DNA of 16,117 nucleotides from Octopus sinensis (taxonomy: Eukaryota): NCBI RefSeq assembly GCF_006345805.1, contig NW_021825177.1, positions 1-16,117 on the forward strand, written 5' to 3'. Position 1 is the stretch's first letter; each line of letters opens with the position of its first letter. The position numbers were made by a program, and so were the translations under genes. Of the stretch, positions 191-15,827 are shown piece after piece. Below the pieces are notes generated by a model. That model was not told where the DNA came from, searched no databases, and was given only the letters and a program-made list of their open reading frames with translations.

Positions 191-603
191 ACTCTCTTAC
201 TTGTTTCAGTCATTTGACTGCGGCCATGCTGGAGCACCGCCTTTAGTCGAGCAACTCGACTTATTCTTTGTAAGCCCAGTACTTATTCTATCGGCCCATT
301 TTGCCGAACCGCTAAGTTACGGGGACATAAACACACCAGCATCGGTTGTCAAGCAATGCTAAGGGGACAAACACAGACACACAAACACACACACATACAC
401 ACACACACATATATATATATTTATATATATATATATATACGACGGGCTTCTTTCAGTTTCCGTCTACCAAATCCACTCACAAGGGTTTGGTCGGCCCGAG
501 GCTATAGTAGAAGACACTTGCCCAAGGTGCCACGCAGTGGGACTGAACCCGGAACCATGTGGTTGGTAAACAAGCTACTTACCACACAGCCATTCCTGCG
601 CCT
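191..603 (-). mobile_element. SINE family A, full-length tRNA-derived CORE-like SINE
   Basis: Reverse complement of the 11583-12010 and 12200-12632 copies: head, internal (TA)/(TG) microsatellite, body, and GACTGAAACAAGTAA(GAG) tail. Confidence 0.9.
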
Positions 604-622
604 ATATATACATATACATATA

Positions 623-784
623 TACGACGGGCTTCTTTCAGTTTCCGTTTACCAAATCCACTCACAAGGCTTTGGTCGGCCGAGGCTATAGTAGAAGACA
701 CTTTCCCAAGGTGCCACGCAGTGGGACTGAACCCCGAACCATGTGGTTGGTAAACAAGCTACTTACCACACAGCCACTCCTGCG

Positions 785-787
<3 letters not shown>
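623..787 (-). mobile_element. SINE family A, head-only copy in tandem with 191-603
   Basis: Near-identical to 437-603 and separated from it by a TA/TACA run. Confidence 0.9.
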
Positions 788-824
<37 letters not shown>

Positions 825-907: not shown

Positions 908-1052
908 TATTTTAAAACCGAAACCTATGCTTTCGGCCTTCATTCAGAGATCCGTTGAGGTGTATGTGACCAAAGGACCAGCCTAGGGCGAAACAAAAAC
1001 GCCAGCGATATGGTAAATACCAGTACAAATGTTTTGATTGTATCAGATTAAT

Positions 1053-1300
1053 GGGTGGGGGGGTGTTGACGACGGTGGTGGCGGGTATTGGTGGTGGTGG
1101 TGGTGGTGGTTCATAATGAGGTAATGGTGGTGGAGGTGACAGTGACAGCAGTGGTGATGAAGGTAGTGGTGGTGGTGGTGGGTCGCGGACAATTGGGGGT
1201 TTTGTCAGTGGGGCAGGGGACGGGTTTTGGTGAAGATAGCCCTAATAATAAGTGTGTGTGTGGGGGTAGGTAATCGTCCATGGTGGTGGCGGTGGTGAGG
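1053..1300 (+). repeat. (GGT)n-rich low-complexity tract
   Basis: Imperfect GGT runs at 1090-1110, 1165-1180 and 1281-1300. Confidence 0.8.
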
Positions 1301-1422
1301 GTGATTATTGTGCTTATTGATTACAGGGGGGCGAGGAAGCAGTGTGGGGCCACGATGGAGTGGGGGTTGAAGCGAAACGTTTATCATCGATTTGATGCTA
1401 ATAACCGGCGCTATCTTGCCCA

Positions 1423-2861: not shown

Positions 2862-2915
2862 ATTAGTCAATTTAGGGTACCAAAAAAATTTTTTTGCTAC
2901 CCTAAATTGACTAAT
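2862..2915. repeat. 54-bp near-perfect palindrome with no spacer
   Basis: ATTAGTCAATTTAGGGTACC-A7|T7-GCTACCCTAAATTGACTAAT, centred at 2888/2889, with one mismatch (2880/2897). Confidence 0.95.
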
Positions 2916-3067
2916 TGATATAATTTTCTGAATAATTCTGAGATTGAATCGGCAGTTTATATTTACTGTTGATAAGTTTGGCGCGAATACGTCAGTCTTG
3001 AAAATTTTAAGTCAGATATCCCGTAGGCATCAATACAGACGCCTCGTGTATATTTGTCTCTCCCAGG

Positions 3068-3169
3068 TCTTTTACTGATGAAGTGTAACCTATGGTAGAT
3101 TGGCTTAATTTAATTTAATTAAGCTAATTTAATCATTAATGACACAGAAACGTTGCAACGTCTAAAAGG
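3068..3169 (+). ncRNA. Type-I hammerhead ribozyme (HHR-1) with long stem II
   Basis: Stem I TCTTTTA (3068-3074) / TAAAAGG (3163-3169). Core CTGATGA 3075-3081 and GAAA 3147-3150. Stem III ACGTTG/CAACGT. GUC triplet 3160-3162. Stem II GTGT/ACAC, ATGGT/ATCAT and a 14-bp AGATTGGCTTAATT/AATTAAGCTAATTT helix. Confidence 0.85.
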
Positions 3170-3424
3170 ATGAATTAGGGTAAATGTTTTTAAATTTTCA
3201 CCTAATTTCTGAATTAATAATACTTGGCGGTGTGAGTTATGGCTGCTCTTTCTGGTGGACGAGTGACCTGTTGGGGTCACTCCTAAATCGTTATATATAT
3301 ATATATATAATATATATATACAAAATTTAAAGGACTGACCACTAAAAGTGGATGGTGAATATGCTAGATACAGACGTCAAAATCGCTATTTTCCACGAAG
3401 AATGTGTTCTCAAGAAAAACTCAG

Positions 3425-3494
3425 CACAAAACCAAAGTGTAAAAAATAAACAATTTTCATTTGTCTTGCTTATTTTTTACACTTTGGTATTGTG
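3425..3494. repeat. Inverted repeat, 29-bp arms with a 12-nt loop
   Basis: CACAAAACCAAAGTGTAAAAAATAAACAA (3425-3453) versus TTGCTTATTTTTTACACTTTGGTATTGTG (3466-3494), 2 mismatches. Confidence 0.95.
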
Positions 3495-6400
3495 GGTGGG
3501 GCCCAGTTAGAATTTTCTTCTGGTTGGGTAGCCCATCCCACTCAAAAGGTCCCTGATTAAGGGTCGTTTAAGGATGTTGAAAGAACCACCCATGTTTCCA
3601 GAAGTGAATCATTCAAACCCCAAAGAATTCCTCTCAACACATGGCTATGATGCTCCCCCACTACTTCTGCTGGTGATCAAATATGCACATATCGTCAGCC
3701 ACTAAGGGACATGCTCAACTGGTTAAGGTCAAACAACTGACAAGCAAATATGTGGTATTGAGCAGAATATTTGCTGTAGCCCCTCTTTTATACCAAGACG
3801 AAACAATGTACATGATAACACTTCAAATCAGTTAAGATCAGAAGCCATGAGAGCCACTGCCTGGTACTGCATCCAGGCATAGCAAATCTGTGGTATTGAG
3901 CAGAATATTTGCTGTAGCCCATCTTTTATACCAAGACAAAACAATGTACATGATAACACTTCCAATCAGTTAAGATCAGAAGCCATGAGAGCCACTGCCT
4001 GGTACTGCATCAGGGCATTAGCAAATCTGTGGTATTGAGCAGAATATTTGCTGTAGCCCTCTTTTATACCAAGACGAAACAATGTACATGATAACACTTC
4101 AATCAGTTAAGATCAGAAGCCATGAGAGCCACTGCCTGGTACTGCTGATCAGGGCATTAGCAAATCTGTGGTATGAGCAGAATATTTGCTGTAGCCCCTC
4201 TTTATACCAAGACGAAACAATGTACATGATAACACTTCCAATCAGTTAGAGATCAGAAGCCATGAGAGCCACTGCCTGGTACTGCATCAGGGCATTAGCA
4301 AATCTGTGGTATTCAGCACAATATTTGCTGTAGGCCATCTTTTATACAAGACAAACTAATGTACATGATAACACTTCAATCAGTTAAGATCAGAAGCCAT
4401 GAGAGCCACTGCCTGGTACTGCATCAGGGCATTAGCAAATCTGTGGTATTGAGCAGAATATTTGCTGTAGCCCCTCTTTATACCAAGACGAAACAATGTA
4501 CATGATAACACTTCAATCAGTTAAGATCAGAAGCCATGAGAGCCACTGCCTGGTACTGCATCAGGGCATTAGCAATCTGTGGTATTGAGCAGAATATTTG
4601 CTGTAGCCCTCTTTTATACCAAGACAAAACATGTACATGATAACACTTCCAATCAGTTAAGATCAGAAGCCATGAGAGCCACTGCTGGTACTGCATCAGG
4701 GCATTAGCAAATCTGTGGTATTGAGCAGAATATTGCTGTAGGCCATCTTTTATACCAAGACGAAACAATGTACATGATAACACTTCAATCAGTTAAGATC
4801 AGAAGCCATGAGAGCCACTGCCTGTATACTGCATCAGGGCATTAGCAAATCTGTGGTATTGAGCAGAATATTTGCTGTAGCCCCTCTTTATACCAAGACG
4901 AAACAATGTACATGATAACACTTCCAATCAGTTAAGATCAGAAGCCATGAGAGCCACTGCCTGGTACTGCATCAGGGCATTAGCAAATCTGTGGTATTGA
5001 GCAGAATATTTGCTGTAGGCCATCTTTTATACCAAGACAAAACAATGTACATGATAACACTTCCAATCAGTTAGATCAGAAGCCATGAGAGCCACTGCCT
5101 GGTACTGCATCAGGGCATTAGCAAATCTGTGGTATTGAGCAGAATATTTGCTGTAGCCAGTCCCATCTTTTATACCAAGACAAAACAATGTACATGATAA
5201 CACTTCCAATCAGTTAAGATCAGAAGCCATGAGAGCCACTGCCTGGTACTGCATCAGGGCATTAGCAATCTGTGGTATTGAGCAGAATATTTGCTGTAGC
5301 CATCTTTTATACCAAGACAAAACAATGTACATGATAACACTTCCAATCAGTTAAGATCAGAAGCCATGAGAGCCACTGCCTGGTACTGCATCAGGGCATT
5401 AGCAAATCTGTGGTATTGAGCAGAATATTTGCTGTAGCCCATCTTTTATACCAAGACAAAACAATGTACATGATAACACTTCCAATCAGTTAAGATCAGA
5501 AGCCATGAGAGCCACTGCCTGGTACTGCATCAGGGCATTAGCAAATCTGTGGTATTGAGCAGAATATTTGCTGTAGCCCATCTTTTATACCAAGACAAAA
5601 CATGTACATGATAACACTTCCAATCAGTTAAGATCAGAAGCCATGAGAGCCACTGCCTGGTACTGCTCAGGGCATTAGCAAATCTGTGGTATTGAGCAGA
5701 ATATTTGCTGTAGCCCATCTTTTATACCAAGACAAAACAATGTACATGATAACATAACACTTCAATCAGTTAAGATCAGAAGCCATGAGACCACTGCCTG
5801 GTACTGCATCAGGGCATTAGCAAATCTGTGGTATTGAGCAGAATATTTGCTGTACCCATCTTTTATACCAAGACAAAACAATGTACATGATAACACTTCC
5901 AATCAGTTAAGATCAGAAGCATGAGAGCCACTGCCTGGTACTGCATCAGGGCATTAGCAAATCTGTGGTATTGAGCAGAATATTGCTGTAGCCCATCTTT
6001 TATACCAAGACAAAACAATGTACATGATAACACTTCCAATCAGTTAAGATCAGAGCCATGAGAGCCACTGCCTGGTACTGCATCAGGGCATTCAAATCTG
6101 TGGTATTGAGCAGAATATTGCTGTAGCCCATCTTTTATACCAAGACAAAACAATGTACATGATAACACTTCCAATCAGTTAAGATCAGAAGCCATGAGAG
6201 CCACTGCTGGTACTGGTACTGCATCAGGGCATTAGCAAATCTGTGGTATTGAGCAGAATATTTGCTGTAGCCCATCTTTTATACCAAGACAAAACAATGT
6301 ACATGATAACACTTCAAATCAGTTAAGATCAGAAGCCATGAGAGCCACTGCCTGGTACTGCATCAGGGCATTAGCAAATCTGTGGTATTGAGCAGAATAT

Positions 6401-9400
6401 TTGCTGTTGTCCATCTTTTATACCCAGACAAAACAATGTACATGATAACACTTCCAATCAGTTAAGATCAGAAGCCATGAGAGCCACTGCCTGGAACTGC
6501 ATCAGGGCATTAGCAAATCTGTGGTATTGAGCAGAATATTTGCTGTAGCCCATCTTTTATACCAGACAAAACAATGTACATGATAACACTTCCAATCAGT
6601 TAAGATCAGAAGCCATGAGAGCCACTGCCTGAACTGCATCAGGGCATTAGCAAATCTGTGGTATTGAGCAGAATATTTGCTGTAGGCCATCTTTTATACC
6701 AAGACAAAACAATGTACATGATAACACTTCCAATCAGTTAAGATCAGAAGCCATGAGAGCCACTGCCTGGAACTGCATCAGGGCATTAGCAAATCTGTGG
6801 TATTGAGCAGAATATTTGCTGTAGCCCATCTTTTATACCCAGACAACACAACATGTACATGATAACACTTCCAATCAGTTAAGATCAGAAGCCATGAGAG
6901 CCACTGCCTGCCTGGTACTGCATCAGGGCATTAGCAATCTGTGGTATTGAGCAGAATATTTGCTGTTGTCCATCTTTATACCAAGACAAAACAATGTACA
7001 TGATAACACTTCCAATCAGTTAAGATCAGAAGCCATGAGAGCCACTGCCTGGTACTGCATCAGGGTATTAGCAAATCTGTGGTATTGAGCAGAATATTTG
7101 CTGTAGCCCATCTTTTATACCAAGACAAAACAATGTACATGATAACACTTCCAGTCAGTTAAGATCAGAAGCCATGAGAGCCACTGCCTGGTACTGCATC
7201 AGGGTATTAGCAAATCTGTGGTATTGAGCAGAATATTTGCTGTAGCCCATCTTTTATACCAAGACAAAACAATGTACATGATAACACTTCCAATCAGTTA
7301 AGATCAGAAGCCATGAGAGCCACTGCCTGGTACTGCATCAGGGCATTAGCAAATCTGTGGTATTGAGCAGAATATTTGCTGTAGCCCATCTTTTATACCC
7401 AGACAAAACAATGTACATGATAACACTTCCAATCAGTTAAGATCAGAAGCCATGAGAGCCACTGCCTGGAACTGCATCAGGGCATTAGCAAATCTGTGGT
7501 ATTGAGCAGAATATTTGCTGTAGCCCATCTTTTATACCCAGACAAAACAATGTACATGATAACACTTCCAATCAGTTAAGATCAGAAGCCATGAGAGCCA
7601 CTGCCTGGAACTGCATCAGGGCATTAGCAAATCTGTGGTATTGAGCAGAATATTTGCTGTAGCCCATCTTTTATACCCAGACAAAACAATGTACATGATA
7701 ACACTTCCAATCAGTTAAGATCAGAAGCCATGAGAGCCACTGCCTGGTACTGCATCAGGGCATTAGCAAATCTGTGGTATTGAGCAGAATATTTGCTGTT
7801 GTCCATCTTTTATACCAAGACAAAACAATGTACATGATAACACTTCCAATCAGTTAAGATCAGAAGCCATGAGAGCCACTGCCTGGTACTGCATCAGGGT
7901 ATTAGCAAATCTGTGGTATTGAGCAGAATATTTGCTGTAGCCCATCTTTTATACCAAGACAAAACAATGTACATGATAACACTTCCAGTCAGTTAAGATC
8001 AGAAGCCATGAGAGCCACTGCCTGGTACTGCATCAGGGTATTAGCAAATCTGTGGTATTGAGCAGAATATTTGCTGTAGCCCATCTTTTATACCAAGACA
8101 AAACATGTACATGATAACACTTCCAATCAGTTAAGATCAGAAGCCATGAGAGCCCCTGCCTGTACTGCATCAGGGCATTAGCAAATCTGTGGTATTGAGC
8201 AGAATATTTGCTGTAGCCCATCTTTTATACCAAGACAAAACAATGTACATGATAACACTTCCAATCAGTTAAGATCAGAAGCCATGAGAGCCTGCCTGGT
8301 ACTGCATCAGGGCATTAGCAAATCTGTGGTATTGAGCAGAATATTTGCTGTTGTCCATCTTTTATACCAAGACAAAACAATGTACATGATAACACTTCCA
8401 ATCAGTTAAGATCAGAAGCCATGAGAGCCACTGCCTGGATACTGCATCAGGGCATTAGCAAATCTGTGGTATTGAGCAGAATATTGCTGTAGCCCATCTT
8501 TTATACCAGACAAAACAATGTACATGATAACACTTCCAATCAGTTAAGATCAGAAGCCATGAGAGCCACTGCCTGGTACTGCATCAGGGCATTAGCAAAT
8601 CTGTGGTATTGAGCAGAATATTGCTGTTGTCCATCTTTATACCAAGACAAAACATGTACATGATAACACTTCCAATCAGTTAAGATCAGAAGCCATGAGA
8701 GCCACTGCCTGGAACTGCATCAGGGCATTAGCAAATCTGTGGTATTGAGCAGAATATTTGCTGTAGCCCATCTTTTATACCAAGACAAAACAATGTACAT
8801 GATAACACTTCCAGTCAGTTAAGATCAGAAGCCATGAGAGCCACTGCCTGGTACTGCATCAGGTATTAGCAAATCTGTGGTATTGAGCAGAATATTTGCT
8901 GTAGCCCATCTTTTATACCAAGACAAAACAATGTACATGATAACACTTCCAGTCAGTTAAGATCAGAAGCCATGAGAGCCACTGCCTGGTACTGCATCAG
9001 GGCATTAGCAAATCTGTGGTATTCAGCACAATATTTGCTGTAGCCCATCTTTTATACCAAGACAAAACAATGTACATGATAACACTTCCAATCAGTTAAG
9101 ATCAGCAGCCATGAGAGCCACTGCCTGGTACTGCATCAGGGCATTAGCAAATCTGTGGTATTGAGCAGAATATTTGCTGTAGCCCATCTTTTATACCAAG
9201 ACAAAACAATGTACATGATAACACTTCCAGTCAGTTAAGATCAGAAGCCATGAGAGCCACTGCCTGGTACTGCATCAGGTATTAGCAATCTGTGGTATTG
9301 AGCAGAATATTTGCTGTAGCCCATCTTTTATACCAAGGCAAAACAATGTACATGATAACACTTCCAATCAGTTAAGATCAGAAGCCATGAGAGCCACTGC

Positions 9401-10001
9401 CTGGTACTGCATCAGGGCATTAGCAAATCTGTGGTATTGAGCAGAATATTTGCTGTAGCCCATCTTTATATACCAAGACAAAACAATGTACATGATAACA
9501 CTTCCAGTCAGTTAAGATCAGAAGCCATGAGAGCCACTGCCTGGTACTGCATCAGGCATTAGCAAATCTGTGTATTGAGCAGAATATTTGCTGTAGCCCA
9601 TCTTTTATACCAAGACAAAACAATGTACATGATAACACTTCCAATCAGTTAAGATCAGAAGCCATGAGAGCCACTGCCTGGTACTGCATCAGGGCATTAG
9701 CAAATCTGTGGTATTGAGCAGAATATTTGCTGTAGGACATCTTTTATACCAAGACAAAACAATGTACATGATAACACTTCCAATCAGTTAAGATCAGAAG
9801 CCATGAGAGCCACTGCCTGGTACTGCATCAGGGCATTAGCAAATCTGTGGTATTGAGCAGAATATTTGCTGTAGGCCATCTTTTATACCAAGACAAAACA
9901 ATGTACATGATAACACTTCCAATCAGTTAAGATCAGAAGCCATGAGAGCCACTGCCTGGTACTGCATCAGGGCATTTATTATTATTATTATTATTATTAT
10001 T
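3495..10001 (+). mobile_element. 5'-truncated non-LTR retroelement 3' region with tandemly amplified terminus and (TTA)n tail
   Basis: About 250 bp of unique sequence runs seamlessly into the first array unit, and the last unit ends directly in a (TTA)n tail (9975-10001). The terminal stem-loop TGCCTG...CAGGGCA precedes the tail. No ORF remains, so the clade cannot be assigned and the 5' boundary is approximate. Confidence 0.6.
3743..9976 (+). repeat. Tandem array, 45 copies of a ~139-bp unit
   Basis: Unit: AGCAAATCTGTGGTATTGAGCAGAATATTTGCTGTAGCCCATCTTTTATACCAAGACAAAACAATGTACATGATAACACTTCCAATCAGTTAAGATCAGAAGCCATGAGAGCCACTGCCTGGTACTGCATCAGGGCATT. Starts were counted by eye (3743, 3881, 4020 ... 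5401, 5540 ... 9699, 9838). Confidence 0.98.
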
Positions 10002-10023
10002 GTTGTTGTTGTTGTTATTGTTG
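9975..10023 (+). repeat. (TTA)n followed by (TTG)n microsatellite tail
   Basis: Directly visible. Confidence 0.95.
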
Positions 10024-10028
10024 CATAT

Positions 10029-10117
10029 TATTTCGTCTGTCTTTACGTTCTGAGTTCAAATTCCACAAGGTCAACTTTGCTTTTCATCTTTTCAGGGTCG
10101 ATAAACAAATTTCCAGT
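10029..10117 (+). mobile_element. SINE family B, internal fragment
   Basis: Aligns to 13514-13603, including GAGTTCAAATTCC and CTTTGC(C/T)TTTCATC...GGGTCGATAAA. Confidence 0.8.
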
Positions 10118-10139
10118 CAATTATGCCTATTATTATTCC

Positions 10140-10320
10140 CCTTTTTGGGAATTTTTCGTTGTTATAATTTTGATTGTTACACTGTTTTTACACGGGTTTT
10201 TACACACGGACAAAACCCTTTGTAACTTTTCGTCCTGTTTTGTCCCCTTTTTGTTATAATTAATTTTTGTCAGCCCTTGTGGCCAATAAAAGAATTAATT
10301 ATTATTATTATTATTATTAT
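10140..10320 (+). mobile_element. Retroposon 3'-end fragment with (ATT)n tail, sharing its tail with the SINE B copy at 13468
   Basis: GTCCTGTTTTGTCCCCTTTTTGTT...CAGCCCTTGTGGCCAATAAAAGAA resembles 13645-13693 and is followed by (ATT)n. The 5' boundary is uncertain. Confidence 0.5.
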
Positions 10321-10327
10321 CATGGGA

Positions 10328-10546
10328 GGCAGTGTGCTGGCAGAATCGATACCACGCCAGACAAAATGCTTAGCGGCATTTCGTCCGTCTTTATGTTTTG
10401 AGTTCAAATTCCATCAAGGTCGACTTTGCCCTTCATTCTTCCAAGGTCGATAAAAGAGGTACCAGTTGTAAACCGGGGGTCGACGTAATCGACTTACCGC
10501 CTCTGCCGGAATTGCTGGTTTTGTGCCAAGATTTTTAACCAATATT
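10328..10546 (+). mobile_element. SINE family B, diverged near-full copy (tail type 2)
   Basis: A-box-like TGGCAGAATCG and B-box GAGTTCAAATTCC. The body is homologous to 13468-13632, but the tail differs (AATTGCTGGTTTTGTGCCAAGATTT). Confidence 0.8.
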
Positions 10547-11102
10547 TGTGGAGTGTATCACTAGATACTGACATCCTTTTTCTGATTACATTCTTCAATC
10601 TTCGTTGCTGACGTTGAATATTTTCCGTATGTGAATCTCCCCTGATTCACTGCGAGGCTTGTTTCCTGTTTCTGACGGCGTCGTTGCATCATTTTTCCGC
10701 CGTTCTTTTTATTTCCCCCACTCCATCTCTTTTCCTTAATGTCTATTTTGCTGATGGTATTTATATGAATTCGGTGATAAAGATAATTACTGCTGTATAT
10801 TTATCCTCATGTAAAAAAAAAACCAACCCAAAAACGATGAAAAAATGTATCAAGATTAAATTAGACAACCTTAAGTGAATATAAATATACGTCTGTGTTT
10901 ATGTCTGCAAATGTGTTTACGTATGATTATACGCATGTGTATACTCACAAACACACACACGAATGCATGTATATATTTTATTTTAAACTTATTTTAGTAG
11001 ATGAGAGTTAAATTATGTTCTATAATTATCATCAAGGAATACCTAGAATTTCATTTCCGAACATCAAATACCTACATATATACACATGAACACGTGTATT
11101 CC

Positions 11103-11156
11103 GTCATTCCTTTACGCGTTTCAGCTCGGGGGTTGTGGCTATTCTGGGGCACCGCC
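11103..11156 (-). mobile_element. 3' tail fragment of a SINE related to family A
   Basis: Reverse complement reads GGCGGTGCCCCAGAATAGCCACAAC...GAGCTGAAACGCGTAAAG, similar to the family A tail GGCGGTGCTCCAGCATGGCCGCAGTCAAATGACTGAAACAAGTAAA. Confidence 0.6.
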
Positions 11157-11255
11157 AGTGATTATTTATATATATATATATACATATATTATATATATAT
11201 ATACAAATAATCACATATATATATATATACATGTGTGTGTGTGTGCATGTGTGTG

Positions 11256-11287
<32 letters not shown>

Positions 11288-11507
11288 TATAGATGTCTGA
11301 CTGGCAGGATGAAGCGGCTGACCTCCCTTTTCGAAGGTTTATAATGGACGCAGTTTGTGTCAAATAGCTAGCTTAAGGCGATGCCTCATGGAGCTAATCA
11401 GCGACAGCTTTAGTCTTATATTTAAAGGCTGCCATATCAGTATGGCGATAACTATTAATTTCCAGTAACGCTGTCGTATCTCTTTTAGAAAGACTTAGTA
11501 ATTTTAA

Positions 11508-11511
<4 letters not shown>

Positions 11512-11583
<72 letters not shown>
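11512..11583. repeat. Pure (TA)n run of about 70 bp
   Basis: Directly visible, abutting the SINE head. Confidence 0.95.
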
Positions 11584-11585
<2 letters not shown>

Positions 11586-11746
11586 CGCAGGAGTGGCTGT
11601 GTGGTAAGTAGCTTGTTTACCAACCACATGGTTCCGGGTTCAGTCCCACTGCGTGGCATGTTGGGCAAGTGTCTTCTGCTATAGCCTCGGGCCGACAAAT
11701 GCCTTGTGAGTGGATTTGGTAGACGGAACCTGAAAAGAAGCCCGTC

Positions 11747-11787
<41 letters not shown>

Positions 11788-12010
11788 CGTGTGTGTGTGT
11801 GTGTGTGTGTTTGTCCCCCTAGCATTGCTTGACAACTGATGCTGGTGTGTTTATGTCCCCGTTACTTAGCGGTTCGGCAAAAGGGACCGATAGAATAAGT
11901 ACTGGGCTTACAAAAGAATAAGTCCCGGGGTCGAGTTGCTCGATTAAAGGCGGTGCTCCAGTATGACCGCAGTCAAATGACTGAAACAAGTAAAAGAGTA
12001 AAAAGAGAGA
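11583..12010 (+). mobile_element. SINE family A, full-length
   Basis: Pol III A-box TGGCTGTGTGG 11594-11604 and B-box-like GGTTCAGTCCC 11637-11647. CORE-like TTGGGCAAGT segment, internal (TA)n(TG)n, and (TAAAAGAG)n tail. It resembles the octopus tRNA-derived SINEs (OK/OR1/OR2 group); the exact family is not assigned. Confidence 0.9.
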
Positions 12011-12054
12011 GTACTGGAACGTTTTGATACCACTTCGTATATATGCTGGTGTAT

Positions 12055-12168
12055 CTTTGTCCTCCGCCACCATCGACTCAACTTCGGTGTTGGTTTGTTT
12101 TCCTTCCCGTTACTTCGCGGTTCGGCAAAAATATATCGATGGAACGAGTACGAGACTTACAAAATAAA
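12055..12168 (+). mobile_element. Old, diverged SINE A-related body, left part of an interrupted copy
   Basis: TTTGTCCTCC...CCCGTTACTTCGCGGTTCGGCAAAA...CGATGGAACGAGTACGAGACTTACAAAATAA is collinear with 11810-11920. Confidence 0.75.
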
Positions 12169-12199
12169 TAAACAAATAATTAAAATAAAATAAATAAAT

Positions 12200-12632
12200 A
12201 GGCGCAGGGGTGGCTGTGTGGTAAGTAGCTTGCTAACCAACCACATGGTTCCGGGTTCAGTCCCACTGCGTGGCACCTTGGGCAAGTGTCTTCTGCTATA
12301 GCCCCGGGCTGATCAATGCCTTGTGAGTGGATTTGGTAGACGGAAACTGAAAGAAGCCTGTCGTATATATGTATATATGTCTATATATATATATATGTTT
12401 GTGTGTATATATGTTTGTGTGTCTGTGTTTGTCCCCCTAGCATTGCTTGACAACCGATGCTGGTGTGTTTACGTCCCCGTCACTTAGCGGTTCGGCAAAA
12501 GTGACCGATAGAATAAGTACTGGGCTTACAAAAGAATAAGTCCTGGGGGTCGATTTGCTCGACTAAAGGCGGTGCTCCAGCATGGCCGCAGTCAAATGAC
12601 TGAAACAAGTAAAAGAGTAAAAGAGTAAAGAG
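12200..12632 (+). mobile_element. SINE family A, full-length, nested in an older copy
   Basis: Complete head, body and tail. The CORE-like TGCGTGGCACCTTGGGCAAGTGTCTT lies at 12267-12292. Confidence 0.9.
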
Positions 12633-12638
12633 TAAATA

Positions 12639-12733
12639 TGCTCTGGTGTCGCTCTGCTCCACAAAACGTCTCAAAGCGGTGCACCAGCATGGCCGCAGTC
12701 CAATGACTGAATCAAATGAAGGATAAAAGATAA
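12639..12733 (+). mobile_element. Old, diverged SINE A-related tail, right part of the interrupted copy
   Basis: CTGGTGTCGCTCTGCTCCAC...GCGGTGCACCAGCATGGCCGCAGTCCAATGACTGAA...GATAAAAGATAA continues the consensus from where 12055-12168 stops. Confidence 0.75.
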
Positions 12734-13174
12734 TATCATAGTATAACGGAACACTAAGTAGGGCGGTGTGGAGTCATATGAGGAGCGACGAGAGGTTGGA
12801 TAGCGCCATGACTGCGGGTTTATCGGTATTCCAGATACGAAGATATTTTAACGGCTTTCTTCCTAATGTATCATTTTTTTTAAAACGATATTTGTTGACA
12901 TCCATCATCTTCGAGGCTGAGTGTGGATTACATTTGCATAAATTAAACATGTATGCAGGAAGTAGGGTTTGTGATGGTGGCAATGGGCGTCATACTGTTG
13001 ATGTTTGCGATGTGTGGGTGGAGGTGTACTGGTTCGGATGTTTGTGGTAGTGGTGGGTGCTGTTGGTGGTTGAGTTGTAAGTAATTGTATTGGTGGAGGC
13101 TGTGGTGAAAGGACCATAGTTATTTTTGCCGTAAGGTAATGTTGCGGGAATGCACACTTATATATTGTCAGATA

Positions 13175-13433
13175 ACACACACACACATACGCTCACACAC
13201 ATGTACACACACATTAAATATGTATATATATATATATATAAATATATGTATGTATATGCATATGTATGTATACATATATGTATGTATATGCATGTATATT
13301 CATATGTACGTATTTATATATACTAATAACTAATTCTGTTATATGTACATACATATATGCATACATGTGTGTATGTAAATGTATGCATGTATGTGTGTAT
13401 GTGTTTATATGTGAATGTATGTATGTGTGTGTG

Positions 13434-13466
<33 letters not shown>
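13175..13466. repeat. Compound (CA)/(TA)/(TATG) microsatellite
   Basis: Directly visible. Confidence 0.9.
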
Positions 13467-13467
<1 letters not shown>

Positions 13468-13469
<2 letters not shown>

Positions 13470-13690
13470 CAAGGTGGCAGAAACGCTAGCGCGCCGGTCG
13501 AAATGCTTAGCGGTATTTCGTCTGTCGTTACGTTCTGAGTTCAAATTCCGCCAAGGTCGACTTTGCCTTTCATCCTTTCGGGGTCGATAAATAAAGTACC
13601 AGTTTCGCACTAGGTTCGATGTAGTCGACTTAATCCCTTTGTCTGTCTTTGTTTGTCCCCTCTATGTTTAGCTCCTTGTTGGCAGTAAAG

Positions 13691-13695
<5 letters not shown>
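13468..13695 (+). mobile_element. SINE family B, full-length tRNA-derived SINE with a Meta-domain-like centre (tail type 1)
   Basis: A-box-like TGGCAGAAACG 13475-13485 and B-box GAGTTCAAATTCC 13537-13549. The central GACTTTGCCTTTCATCCTTTCGGGGTCGATAAATAAAGTACCAG resembles the MetaSINE domain as I recall it. Flanked by (TA)n on both sides. Confidence 0.85.
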
Positions 13696-13729
<34 letters not shown>

Positions 13730-13754
13730 ACTTCTTTGACTATCTTATAAAAAC

Positions 13755-13878
13755 TCTCTGATGAACCCTAGAGGCATACCCAAGTACCCTAATTTTATCT
13801 ACAGATTACTACAGTACACTGAAAAGATGGAAATAATATGTGGGGTACTGTGACCCCTTGACAGAAACAGCTGTAAGA
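13755..13878 (+). ncRNA. Type-I hammerhead ribozyme motif (HHR-2), probably degenerate
   Basis: CTGATGA 13758-13764 and GAAA 13864-13867. Palindromic stem III ACAGCTGT, GUA triplet 13873-13875. Stem I TCT/AGA is only 3 bp. The 99-nt stem II region has GTACCC/GGGTAC and TTTTATCT/AGATGGAA helices, but its base pairs poorly. Confidence 0.6.
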
Positions 13879-13970
13879 AACTGCTCTTCTTTCTCTATTC
13901 TAGAAATTACTGGTACTTTACATATGTATTTATATATTATCTGAACTGTTTAAAATAAATAAATAGACAT

Positions 13971-14136
13971 AGGCGCAGGAGTAGCTGTGTGGTAAGTAGC
14001 TTGCTAACCAACCACATGGTTCCGGGTTCAGTCCCACAGCGTAGCATCTTGGGCAAGTGTCTTCTGCTATAACCTCGGGCCGACCAATGCCTTGTGAGTG
14101 GATTTAGTAGACGGAAACCGAAAGAAGCCTGTCGTA

Positions 14137-14171
<35 letters not shown>

Positions 14172-14520
14172 GGCGCAGGAGTGGCTGTGTGGTAAGTAGC
14201 TTGCTAACCAACCACATGGTTCCGGGTTCAGTCCCACAGCGTGGCATCTTGGGCAAGTGTCTTCTGCTATAGCCCCGGGCCGACCAATGCCTTGTGAGTG
14301 GATTTAGTAGACGGAAACCGAAAGAGGCCTGTCGTATATTATATATATAATATATATATAAATAGGCGCAGGAGTGGCTGTGTGGTAAGTAGCTTGCTAA
14401 CCACCACATGGTTCCGGGTTCAGTCCACAGGTGGCATCTTGGGCAAGTGTCCTTTTGCTATAGCCCGCCGACCAATCCTTGTGAGTGGATTTAGTAGACG
14501 AACCGAAAGAAGCGGTCGTA

Positions 14521-14610
<90 letters not shown>

Positions 14611-15010
14611 AATAGGCGCAGGAGTGGCTGTGTGGTAAGTAGCTTGCTAACCAACCACATGGTTCCGGGTTCAGTCCCCAGCGTGGCATCTTGGGCAAGT
14701 GTCTTCTGCTATAGCCCCGGGCCGACCAATGCCTTGGTGAGTGGATTTGGTAGACGAAAACTGAAAAGAAGCCTGTCGTATATATATATATGTATGTGTT
14801 TGTGTGTCTGTGTTTGTCTCCCTAGCATTGCTTGACAAGCAATGCTAGTGTGTTTACGTCCCCGTCACTTAGCGGTTCGGCAAAAGAGACCGATAGAATA
14901 AGTACTGGGCTTACAAAGAATAAGTCCTGGGGGTCGATTTTCTCGACTAAAGGCGGTGCTCCAGCATGGCCGCAGTCAAATGACTGAAACAAGTAAAAGA
15001 GTAAAGAGTA
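13971..15010 (+). mobile_element. Composite SINE A: three head-only units (13971, 14171, 14364) plus one full copy (14614-15010), flanked by an AGACATA duplication
   Basis: Four heads separated by (TA)n, with a single body and tail. AGACATA occurs at 13965-13971 and 15011-15017. Confidence 0.9.
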
Positions 15011-15111
15011 AGACATAATATAATGTCTAACAGTTGAAGAATACTACCTCTGGATTCACTCCATTTTCTCCTTGCCATATAAATATTTATATTTATTACA
15101 TTCGGTAATGA

Positions 15112-15248
15112 TATAACAGGGGGTTGGGTTAAACATCATGAAATATATAATCTTTACACGTGTTTCGCCAACGTATACAAGTATATTGTACGGTCATTAT
15201 TACGTATGCGATTACATAGTCATCAGAAGTAGGGAGTAAATGAATCCA
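15112..15248 (-). repeat. Left arm of a long inverted repeat (137 bp)
   Basis: Reverse complement of 15673-15827 apart from 2 substitutions and an 18-nt indel. Confidence 0.95.
15152..15229 (-). ncRNA. Type-I minimal hammerhead ribozyme motif (HHR-3)
   Basis: The minus strand reads CTT-CTGATGA-(53 nt)-GAAA-CACGTG-TA-AAG. Palindromic stem III ACACGTGT, GUA triplet, 3-bp stem I. Confidence 0.65.
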
Positions 15249-15542
15249 CCCATTTATTATATTCGGTAGTGCAATTGGCATGCAATAAAAAAAATCCCAC
15301 TTGTGTATTAATAATTTGGTATTCTACCAGCGGTATTTTGGATAGATATTATTCCTTAGTTGGTTGGATTCACTACCTCAAACTCTCTTTGAATTAAATA
15401 TAAATCTTCGTATACAGGCAAATAGTTAAATAATTTAATATAAACTTTAAATCGTATATATACGACAATCTGTTGGTATCGAAACATTTGTAGCGATTAA
15501 AAAATTGCTGAACCGTACTTACTCTTCCTTTTGACTCTTTTA

Positions 15543-15576
<34 letters not shown>

Positions 15577-15583
15577 ACCTGGC

Positions 15584-15618
15584 TTGGCCGCAATCCAGTG
15601 ACTGAAACAGATAAAAGA
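15584..15618 (+). mobile_element. Short SINE A-related tail remnant
   Basis: TGGCCGCAATCCAGTGACTGAAACAGATAAAAGA resembles 12691-12730 and 12583-12615. Confidence 0.55.
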
Positions 15619-15672
15619 TCCACACACACACACACTGAGTTCTGCTTAGAAACGGAGGTCGGTACGTTACAA

Positions 15673-15827
15673 TGGATTCATTTACTCCTTACTTCTGATG
15701 ACTTGATACCTTAAGAGGATTATGTAATCGCATACGTAATGATGACCGTACAATATACTTGTATACGTTGGCGAAACACGTGTAAAGATTATATATTTCA
15801 TGATGTTTAACCCAACCCCCTGTTATA
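15673..15827 (+). repeat. Right arm of the long inverted repeat (155 bp)
   Basis: Matches the reverse complement of 15112-15248, with an extra TTGATACCTTAAGAGGAT at 15703-15720. Confidence 0.95.
15692..15787 (+). ncRNA. Type-I minimal hammerhead ribozyme motif (HHR-4)
   Basis: CTT 15692-15694, CTGATGA 15695-15701, 71-nt stem II region, GAAA 15773-15776, stem III ACACGTGT, GUA 15782-15784, AAG 15785-15787. Confidence 0.6.

What the first reader, a model, noticed from the sequence alone, without database searches (positions are those of the whole stretch)
3068..15787. Four hammerhead motifs from three unrelated families share one architecture within 13 kb
Seen: HHR-1, HHR-2 and HHR-3/4 show no primary-sequence similarity outside the core that I can see. 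All nevertheless have CUGAUGA...GAAAC, a self-complementary stem III (ACGTTGCAACGT, ACAGCTGT, ACACGTGT) ending in GUH, and a long insert at stem II (65, 99, 53 and 71 nt). HHR-1 and HHR-2 lie in short AT-rich segments next to (TA)n runs. Inference: the genome hosts a diverse, very abundant population of small ribozyme-bearing retroelements with expanded stem II, which standard short-stem searches would miss.
Basis: partly seen in the sequence, partly recalled or inferred. Interest (0 to 1): 0.85.

Follow-up and report, generated by a model that had tools for sequence, protein, structure and literature searches.

The report
Long-armed hammerhead ribozymes in Penelope retroelements
This animal genome carries tens of thousands of jumping-gene copies with a predicted self-cutting RNA (a hammerhead ribozyme) whose second arm is several times longer than the usual search models allow, so a known kind of element has likely been undercounted here.

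Summary
The four motifs are present exactly as described, far above chance (0.0095 per shuffled window). Genome-wide, one sub-pattern with a 45-105 nt helix II occurs 28,833 times (reversed control 236), against 6,753 with 8-44 nt. They are type I hammerheads of Penelope-like element (PLE) terminal repeats, a known class; the variant is a 50-100 nt hairpin as helix II. Intact Hydra-clade PLEs of this genome carry this form in both terminal repeats. HHR-2 belongs to a ~510-nt non-coding unit whose 3' end is homologous to theirs. HHR-1 belongs to a young ~475-nt tandem (retrozyme-type) family with compensatory changes in every helix. Corrections: HHR-3 is a local inverted, deleted copy of HHR-4, so there are three insertions, not four. 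Only HHR-1 looks intact; the window's HHR-2/3/4 have a broken helix II base. No partner protein was found for HHR-1 or HHR-3/4, and cleavage and expression are untested. A published descriptor (helix II at most 26 nt) cannot match these, but one ~53-nt plant PLE case is in print. New variant of a known kind.

The parts
2862..3294 (+). Family 1 insertion in (TA)n: short inverted arm 2862-2890 ending at 3' end B, plus forward arm 2887-3294 (0.88 of a 475-nt monomer) ending at 3' end A
   Evidence: (L001); 99-100% identical copies genome-wide
3068..3169 (+). HHR-1, intact-looking: helix I 3068-3074/3163-3169 (7 bp), core from 3075, helix II hairpin 3082-3146 (65 nt), palindromic helix III 3150-3161, predicted cut after 3162
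13729..13971 (+). Family 2 unit, first piece (reference positions 19-272 of ~510), holding HHR-2
13755..13878 (+). HHR-2: core from 13758, 99-nt helix II whose basal pairs are lost in this copy, predicted cut after 13875
13972..15010 (+). Array of SINE-like repeats inserted into the family 2 unit, between 7-nt direct repeats at 13965 and 15011
   Evidence: the SINE label is recalled, not from a call
15012..15084 (+). Family 2 unit, second piece (reference 267-339, up to the short 3' end)
15112..15248 (-). HHR-3 copy (core starts 15226, predicted cut after 15155): inverted local copy of HHR-4 with an 18-nt deletion removing the 5' basal strand of helix II; lies inside the family 2 unit
15254..15396 (+). 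Family 2 unit, third piece (reference 372-506), the part homologous to the 3' end of intact Hydra-clade PLEs
15673..15827 (+). HHR-4 copy (core 15695, 71-nt helix II, predicted cut after 15784): decayed member of an old family whose other copies are 69-88% alike

Best explanation
These are hammerhead ribozyme motifs in the terminal repeats of Penelope-like retrotransposons and their likely non-coding derivatives, in which helix II is predicted to be a 50-100 nt hairpin, and intact copies likely cut their own transcript while a PLE-encoded reverse transcriptase and GIY-YIG endonuclease likely paste the RNA into (TA)n runs. Shown: motif, abundance, covariation, and position in both terminal repeats of intact Hydra-clade ORFs. 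Also shown: homology of family 2 to those ends, the tandem 475-495 nt monomers of family 1, and two fixed 3' ends in inverted insertions. Inferred: (i) the hairpin extends helix II away from the core, so only its basal pairs matter for catalysis. (ii) 8-nt palindromes give only 2 bp of helix III in one molecule, so those motifs would cut as dimers; family 1 has 4 bp plus a tetraloop and may cut as a monomer. (iii) Family 1 tandem transcripts would be cut to unit length and perhaps circularised, as for non-LTR retrozymes. (iv) The two 3' ends are the two reverse-transcription start sites known for PLEs, here 96-175 nt apart. In the window only HHR-1 is likely still competent.
For: 28,833 vs 236 control; 7 vs 0.45 in a random sample. 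12 of 16 regions around Hydra-type RT hits hold the motif, 9 with inserts of 53-86 nt, and L167/L168 have it on both sides of a 960-aa ORF with DKT, YRDD, CxCX5C and GIY-YIG-type motifs. Family 1 superfamily: 98.4% of 634 cells paired, 9 pairs with two-sided change across all helices, slid controls 22-45%. Helix III variant counts are 591 + 110 = 701 of 701, with no single-sided change. Family 2 vs Hydra 3' end: score 64, best of 300 shuffles 35; 3 two-sided changes in basal helix II. Hydra 55/53-nt families: 4 two-sided changes. 10 of 10 inverted family 1 insertions with both outer ends visible use end A on one arm and end B on the other; the same two-end pattern occurs in family 2 and Hydra. 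The hammerhead fold of HHR-1 lies 1.7 kcal/mol above the minimum.
Against: No cleavage or expression data. No partner ORF was found for family 1 or family 3/4 (no significant alignment to 11 hammerhead flanks). The helix II inserts of family 2 and Hydra do not align significantly on their own (score 15, shuffle mean 15.1). RNAalifold finds no consensus structure for 17 family 3/4 copies. 5' ends of family 1 arms are not concentrated at the cut site (1 of 24 within 4 nt). The covariation counts rest on few lineages and on structures drawn from these same sequences. In the one PLE reconstituted in vitro, cleavage needed the protein and was not needed for insertion (PMC11167929, passages); 8 of 9 frog retrozyme dimers did not cleave (10.64898/2026.07.22.740005).
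Confidence: 0.8

Rival explanations
1. The motifs are PLE-derived but catalytically dormant; core and hairpin are kept as a binding or recognition structure for the PLE protein, or for promoter/translation control, not for cutting.
For: 5' ends not enriched at the cut site. 26 of 30 family 2 copies start about 46 nt upstream of the core, so uncut RNA was copied. Uncut RNA was the main substrate for the lizard PLE (PMC11167929).
Against: The catalytic core and NUH triplet are kept across dozens of unrelated flanks, with compensatory changes in helices I and III that surround the cut site. Two family 2 secondary arms start within 4 nt of the cut site (L043, L059), a weak hint.
Confidence: 0.12
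2. Families 1 and 3/4 are not PLE-mobilised but are independent ribozyme-bearing satellites or SINEs spread by recombination or by a LINE.
For: No partner ORF or homology found. Family 1 is tandem like a satellite.
Against: Dispersed short arrays on all large contigs listed, always in (TA)n, with head-to-head inverted arms and two fixed 3' ends. This is the same layout as intact Hydra elements and the PLE layout described in PMC8557442 (passages).
Confidence: 0.06
3. Chance juxtaposition of short motifs in AT-rich repetitive DNA.
For: Rfam reports no hammerhead; three window copies fold no better than shuffles.
Against: 122-fold excess over the reversed pattern, 3,606 vs 0, covariation. Rfam also missed short-helix copies in the same call (97).
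Confidence: 0.01

Closest known systems
Minimal / palindromic-helix-III type I hammerheads of PLE terminal repeats (Cervera & De la Pena 2014, PMC4209133)
   Same: Core, NUH site, short helix I, palindromic helix III, extra nucleotide after A9, location in terminal repeats, inverted pairs 100-700 bp apart, thousands of dispersed copies
   Different: Helix II there is up to 7-8 bp with a short loop (descriptor: 3-7 bp, loop 3-10 nt); here 50-100 nt, and this is the majority form
Hydra-clade PLEs (Craig et al. 2021, PMC8557442)
   Same: DKT, RWK-like, CxCX5C motifs, C-terminal endonuclease, (TA)n targets, hammerhead near the 3' end, extra bases on both sides of the helix II base
   Different: All Hydra hammerheads in their File S2, including an octopus one, have short helix II. 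Here several Hydra families have 53-86 nt, and the two 3' ends lie 96-175 nt apart against a 30-40 bp tail. Their spike-moss PLE-X1 motif (about 53 nt helix II, marked as deviating) is a precedent for a long arm.
Metazoan non-LTR retrozymes (Cervera & de la Pena 2020, PMC7229834; Li et al. 2026, 10.64898/2026.07.22.740005)
   Same: Non-coding, AT-rich tandem monomers with one type I hammerhead each, proposed PLE derivatives (family 1)
   Different: Monomer 475-495 nt against 170-400 nt in the 2020 paper (within the 51-972 bp of the 2026 preprint). PLE-type rather than canonical loop-loop hammerhead, 65-69 nt helix II. Circular RNA not shown.

Membership tests
PLE-type type I hammerhead | CUGANGA and GAAA core with NUH cleavage triplet | tested here: met
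   all four motifs
PLE-type type I hammerhead | Helix I closing the motif | tested here: met
   7 bp in HHR-1, 3 bp in the others; 3 two-sided changes in family 1
PLE-type type I hammerhead | Short palindromic helix III | tested here: met
   701 of 701 paired; 66 of 80 legible rows palindromic by hand count, 25% expected
PLE-type type I hammerhead | Paired base of helix II next to the core | tested here: inconclusive
   met for HHR-1 and at family level; not met in the window's HHR-2, and weak in HHR-3 and HHR-4
PLE-type type I hammerhead | Helix II of 3-7 bp with a loop of 3-10 nt (published descriptor) | tested here: not met
PLE-type type I hammerhead | Located in terminal repeats of an RT + GIY-YIG element | tested here: inconclusive
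   met for the same form in L167/L168 and by homology for family 2; no partner found for families 1 and 3/4
PLE-type type I hammerhead | Self-cleavage at the predicted site | not testable with these tools
   needs in vitro transcription or end-mapping
Non-LTR retrozyme (family 1 only) | Head-to-tail tandem units, each with a type I hammerhead | tested here: met
   family 2 shows no full tandem in 30 loci
Non-LTR retrozyme (family 1 only) | Non-coding, low GC monomer of a few hundred nt | tested here: met
   475 and 495 nt; longest ATG ORF 43 and 26 aa
Non-LTR retrozyme (family 1 only) | Canonical loop 1-loop 2 tertiary contacts | not tested
   not examined; loop 2 lies about 25 bp from the core, so the canonical contact looks unlikely (inference)
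Non-LTR retrozyme (family 1 only) | Accumulates as unit-length linear and circular RNA | not testable with these tools
   only assembled contigs of runs not on record as RNA were available
Hydra-clade PLE (partner elements, e.g. L168) | Single ORF with RWK-like, DKT, YRDD, CxCX5C linker and C-terminal GIY-YIG | tested here: met
   read against the paper's alignment; look-alike clusters carry GIY-YIG/RVT_1 in part of their members; Pfam and PDB gave no hit; no tree was built
Hydra-clade PLE (partner elements, e.g. L168) | Insertion into (TA)n with partial tandem and inverted copies | tested here: met

The most novel reading that the evidence does not exclude
The long helix II hairpin is a selected functional module of PLE RNAs, such as a docking site for the PLE protein or a switch that times cleavage. 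Long-armed hammerheads would then be the dominant, uncounted ribozyme form in cephalopods and perhaps in other invertebrate genomes and PLE families now listed as lacking hammerheads, and family 1 an active, monomer-cleaving circular RNA replicon.
Probability: 0.25. Interest if true: 0.72.

Novelty: new variant of a known kind. Interest (0 to 1): 0.5.

Why it matters
Ribozyme censuses in animal genomes use descriptors with a short helix II. Here the long form outnumbers the short one about 4 to 1 for the same helix III pattern and reaches at least 33,000 perfect-core copies (28,833 plus about 4,200 of the family 1 superfamily). Counts and 'no hammerhead' calls in other invertebrates may therefore be too low. 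The role of PLE hammerheads is an open question. This genome offers near-identical young non-autonomous arrays, intact candidate driver elements, and natural long and short helix II variants within one clade, which makes a direct test easy to design.

Tried and rejected
Rfam: no hammerhead among 147 matches at E up to 5 in the window and none at gathering score in 7 loci; short-helix copies were missed as well, so the miss is not specific to the long arm. ARAGORN: nothing. RNA evidence: no RNA holder listed; the four runs laid were contigs only and say nothing on expression, ends or circles. Enrichment of 5' ends at the cut site: 1 of 24 family 1 arms, p about 0.36 (computed for n = 23); rejected. 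The RT fragment beside HHR-2 in L036/L091 and the endonuclease fragment beside family 1 in L093 are separate insertions into the same (TA)n, not the carriers; the first served as bait for intact Hydra elements. Same-strand family 2 pairs 5-6 kb apart held no PLE ORF between them. Profile search with family 3/4 returned only microsatellite-driven hits in the rows printed. The strong family 2 hit to an L053 flank is the adjacent family 2 copy, an artefact. Naiad link: the two octopus Naiad consensus sequences in PMC8557442's supplement show no long-arm motif by eye; the genome was not searched for Naiads, so that question is open. Earlier scan notes: three look-ups, nothing. Lunse et al. (PMC5785218) is not held and was not read; it may list longer variants.

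Full report
Observation. The window is contig C1648 of a 2.72-Gb animal genome. Its repeats and PLE proteins suggest an octopus; this is inferred from likeness to the octopus Hydra protein and from recalled SINE families.

Abundance. In 39 stretches of 10 kb taken at round coordinates on large contigs (389,900 bases) there are 7 motifs at 6 sites, against 0.45 (max 2) in 40 local shuffles; 6 of 7 have inserts of 53-97 nt. This extrapolates to about 46,000 (Poisson range 16,000-97,000). Whole-genome counts agree. CTGANGA N45-105 GAAACANNTGTH occurs 28,833 times (reversed control 236), and the same pattern with N8-44 occurs 6,753 times (control 183). By hand, 66 of the 80 legible rows among the first 100 have a palindromic loop, where 25% is expected. 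The loci held gave 67 distinct motif sequences in 19 clusters, one of them an artefact of a duplicated core. In most clusters with long inserts the best-folding member forms one interrupted hairpin closed next to the core; picking the best member favours this result.

Link to Penelope-like elements. An RT fragment lying by chance beside a family 2 copy retrieved 8,084 candidates, 150 scored. Of 16 larger regions fetched around such hits, 12 hold the motif: 9 with inserts of 53-86 nt and 3 with 16-19 nt; 4 hold none. L167 and L168 have an uninterrupted 960-codon frame with the same 85-nt motif on the same strand before and after it. [quoted passage not shown] Pfam and PDB gave no hit; the Atlas gave clusters at 0.95-0.98 with GIY-YIG or RVT_1 in part of their members. 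No tree was built.

Family 1 (HHR-1). 1,514 candidates, the best 40 at 99-100% identity. They form short head-to-tail arrays of a 475-nt monomer, usually as two head-to-head arms inside (TA)n. The 30 loci collapse to 13 sites. In 10 of 10 inverted insertions with both outer ends visible, one arm stops at monomer position about 134 and the other at about 230; the window copy does the same. The 24 5' ends are scattered, 1 within 4 nt of the cut site. Loose ends pointed to a helix III variant. Exact counts are 591 for the window form, 110 for the doubly changed form and 701 for all four combinations, so no single-sided form exists; this is one event in two lineages. A wider pattern found 3,606 further motifs (control 0), mostly a 495-nt subfamily 69% identical to the first with the same two ends. 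On 21 copies chosen by me for diversity, the drawn structure pairs 98.4% of 634 cells. Two-sided changes occur at 3 pairs of helix I, 3 of basal helix II, 2 of the distal hairpin and 1 of helix III; slid controls pair 22-45%. RNAalifold recovers the distal hairpin and helix III unaided, but not helix I or the base of helix II. The monomer codes for nothing over 43 aa. This is the layout of a non-LTR retrozyme; no autonomous partner was found.

Family 2 (HHR-2). 349 candidates at 80-95%; its 3' end gives 1,831. The unit is about 510 nt. Of 30 loci (one is the reference), 26 start within 8 nt of the same 5' end. 16 reach about 500-508, 7 stop near 339 and 7 elsewhere; five have a long arm plus an inverted arm ending at 325-339, and none is a full tandem. 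The last 90 nt align with the terminus of the intact Hydra element (score 64, best of 300 shuffles 35; a masked rerun gave 39 against 35). Hydra arms likewise end at two places, about +305 and +480 from the core (4 and 4 of 8 arms). The inserts alone do not align significantly, though the basal helix shows 3 two-sided changes between the families (86% of 176 cells paired). In the window the unit is split three ways (13729-13971, 15012-15084, 15254-15396) by a SINE-like array and by HHR-3, and its helix II base can no longer pair.

Family 3/4. Only 28 matches; outside the window they are 69-88% alike. HHR-3 is an inverted copy of HHR-4 with 2 substitutions and an 18-nt deletion, sitting inside the younger family 2 unit, so it is most simply a local duplication. 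The family's majority insert is 71 nt with a pairable base, but RNAalifold finds no common structure in 17 decayed copies. The hammerhead fold of the window copies lies 14-16 kcal/mol above the minimum, against 1.7 for HHR-1.

Mechanism. From PMC4209133 (parts 1-2 of 4, supplement passages) PLE terminal repeats carry type I hammerheads with palindromic helix III that cut weakly and as dimers. From PMC11167929 (passages) reverse transcription starts at two internal sites that give the genomic tail, cleavage is protein-assisted, and insertion does not need it. I infer that transcripts through these termini fold the hammerhead with helix II as a long projecting hairpin, are cut as dimers (8-nt palindromes, duplex -10 to -11 kcal/mol) or, for family 1, possibly as monomers, and are inserted into (TA)n by a PLE protein starting at either of two sites. 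That 26 of 30 family 2 copies include sequence upstream of the core shows that uncut RNA is also copied. Cleavage, circles and the purpose of the long arm are untested.

Comparison and novelty. The class is known. The published descriptor allows at most 26 nt between the core halves and no loop III, and PMC8557442 used 7-17 nt for core-only searches, so neither could match these motifs. All Hydra hammerheads in that paper's File S2 have short arms, but a spike-moss PLE motif with about 53 nt is listed as deviating. Ten full-text searches showed no report of 50-100 nt helix II as a dominant form, and a 2026 octopus repeat annotation does not use the words ribozyme or hammerhead (PMC13282606, term search). 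Also seen: PMC7229834 (part 1 of 6 and passages), 10.64898/2026.07.22.740005 (parts 1-3 of 5; supplements not seen), and passages of PMC7761336, PMC3088659, PMC13725137 and PMC6765202. Lunse et al. could not be read and subscription papers are not covered. Verdict: real, abundant, a new structural variant of a known PLE hammerhead and retrozyme system; interest 0.5.

Noticed in passing
window 3743-9976: 45-copy satellite of 139 bp (96% matches, many single-base indels) with no hammerhead core; unrelated to the finding
   Followed up: no
window 418-808, 11580-12630, 13969-15010: Several SINE-like repeats in tandem (periods about 184-200 bp), joined by (TA)n; label recalled, ARAGORN finds no tRNA
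   Followed up: no
L094 4900-6030: Another tandem hammerhead family with about 557-bp period and a 25-nt helix II, directly beside a family 1 array
   Followed up: no
family 1 monomer positions about 17 and 172 (L007, L203): A donor-like GGTAAAT and an acceptor-like pyrimidine tract plus YAG are kept between subfamilies 69% alike, a possible intron; the acceptor-like site just before HHR-1 (window 3053-3066) is not kept
   Followed up: partly
families 1 and 2, Hydra L167/L170/L176: Two fixed 3' ends 96-175 nt apart, much longer than the 30-40 bp PLE tail in print; in family 2 and three Hydra families the short end follows a CTCCATT motif
   Followed up: partly
L093 3948-4690: Fragment of a very abundant GIY-YIG family (12,439 candidates) with GAAAC-palindrome-C near its 3' end but no intact first core half in this copy
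   Followed up: no
L043 2441, L059 1749: Inverted family 2 arms begin within 4 nt of the predicted cut site; too few to judge
   Followed up: partly
PMC8557442 supplement, two octopus Naiad consensus 3' ends: GAAAC precedes CTGATGA there, a permuted order unlike the motif studied here
   Followed up: no
window 1040-1360 and 2090-2420: GGT-rich and CCA-rich low-complexity tracts facing each other around a (TACA)n block
   Followed up: no
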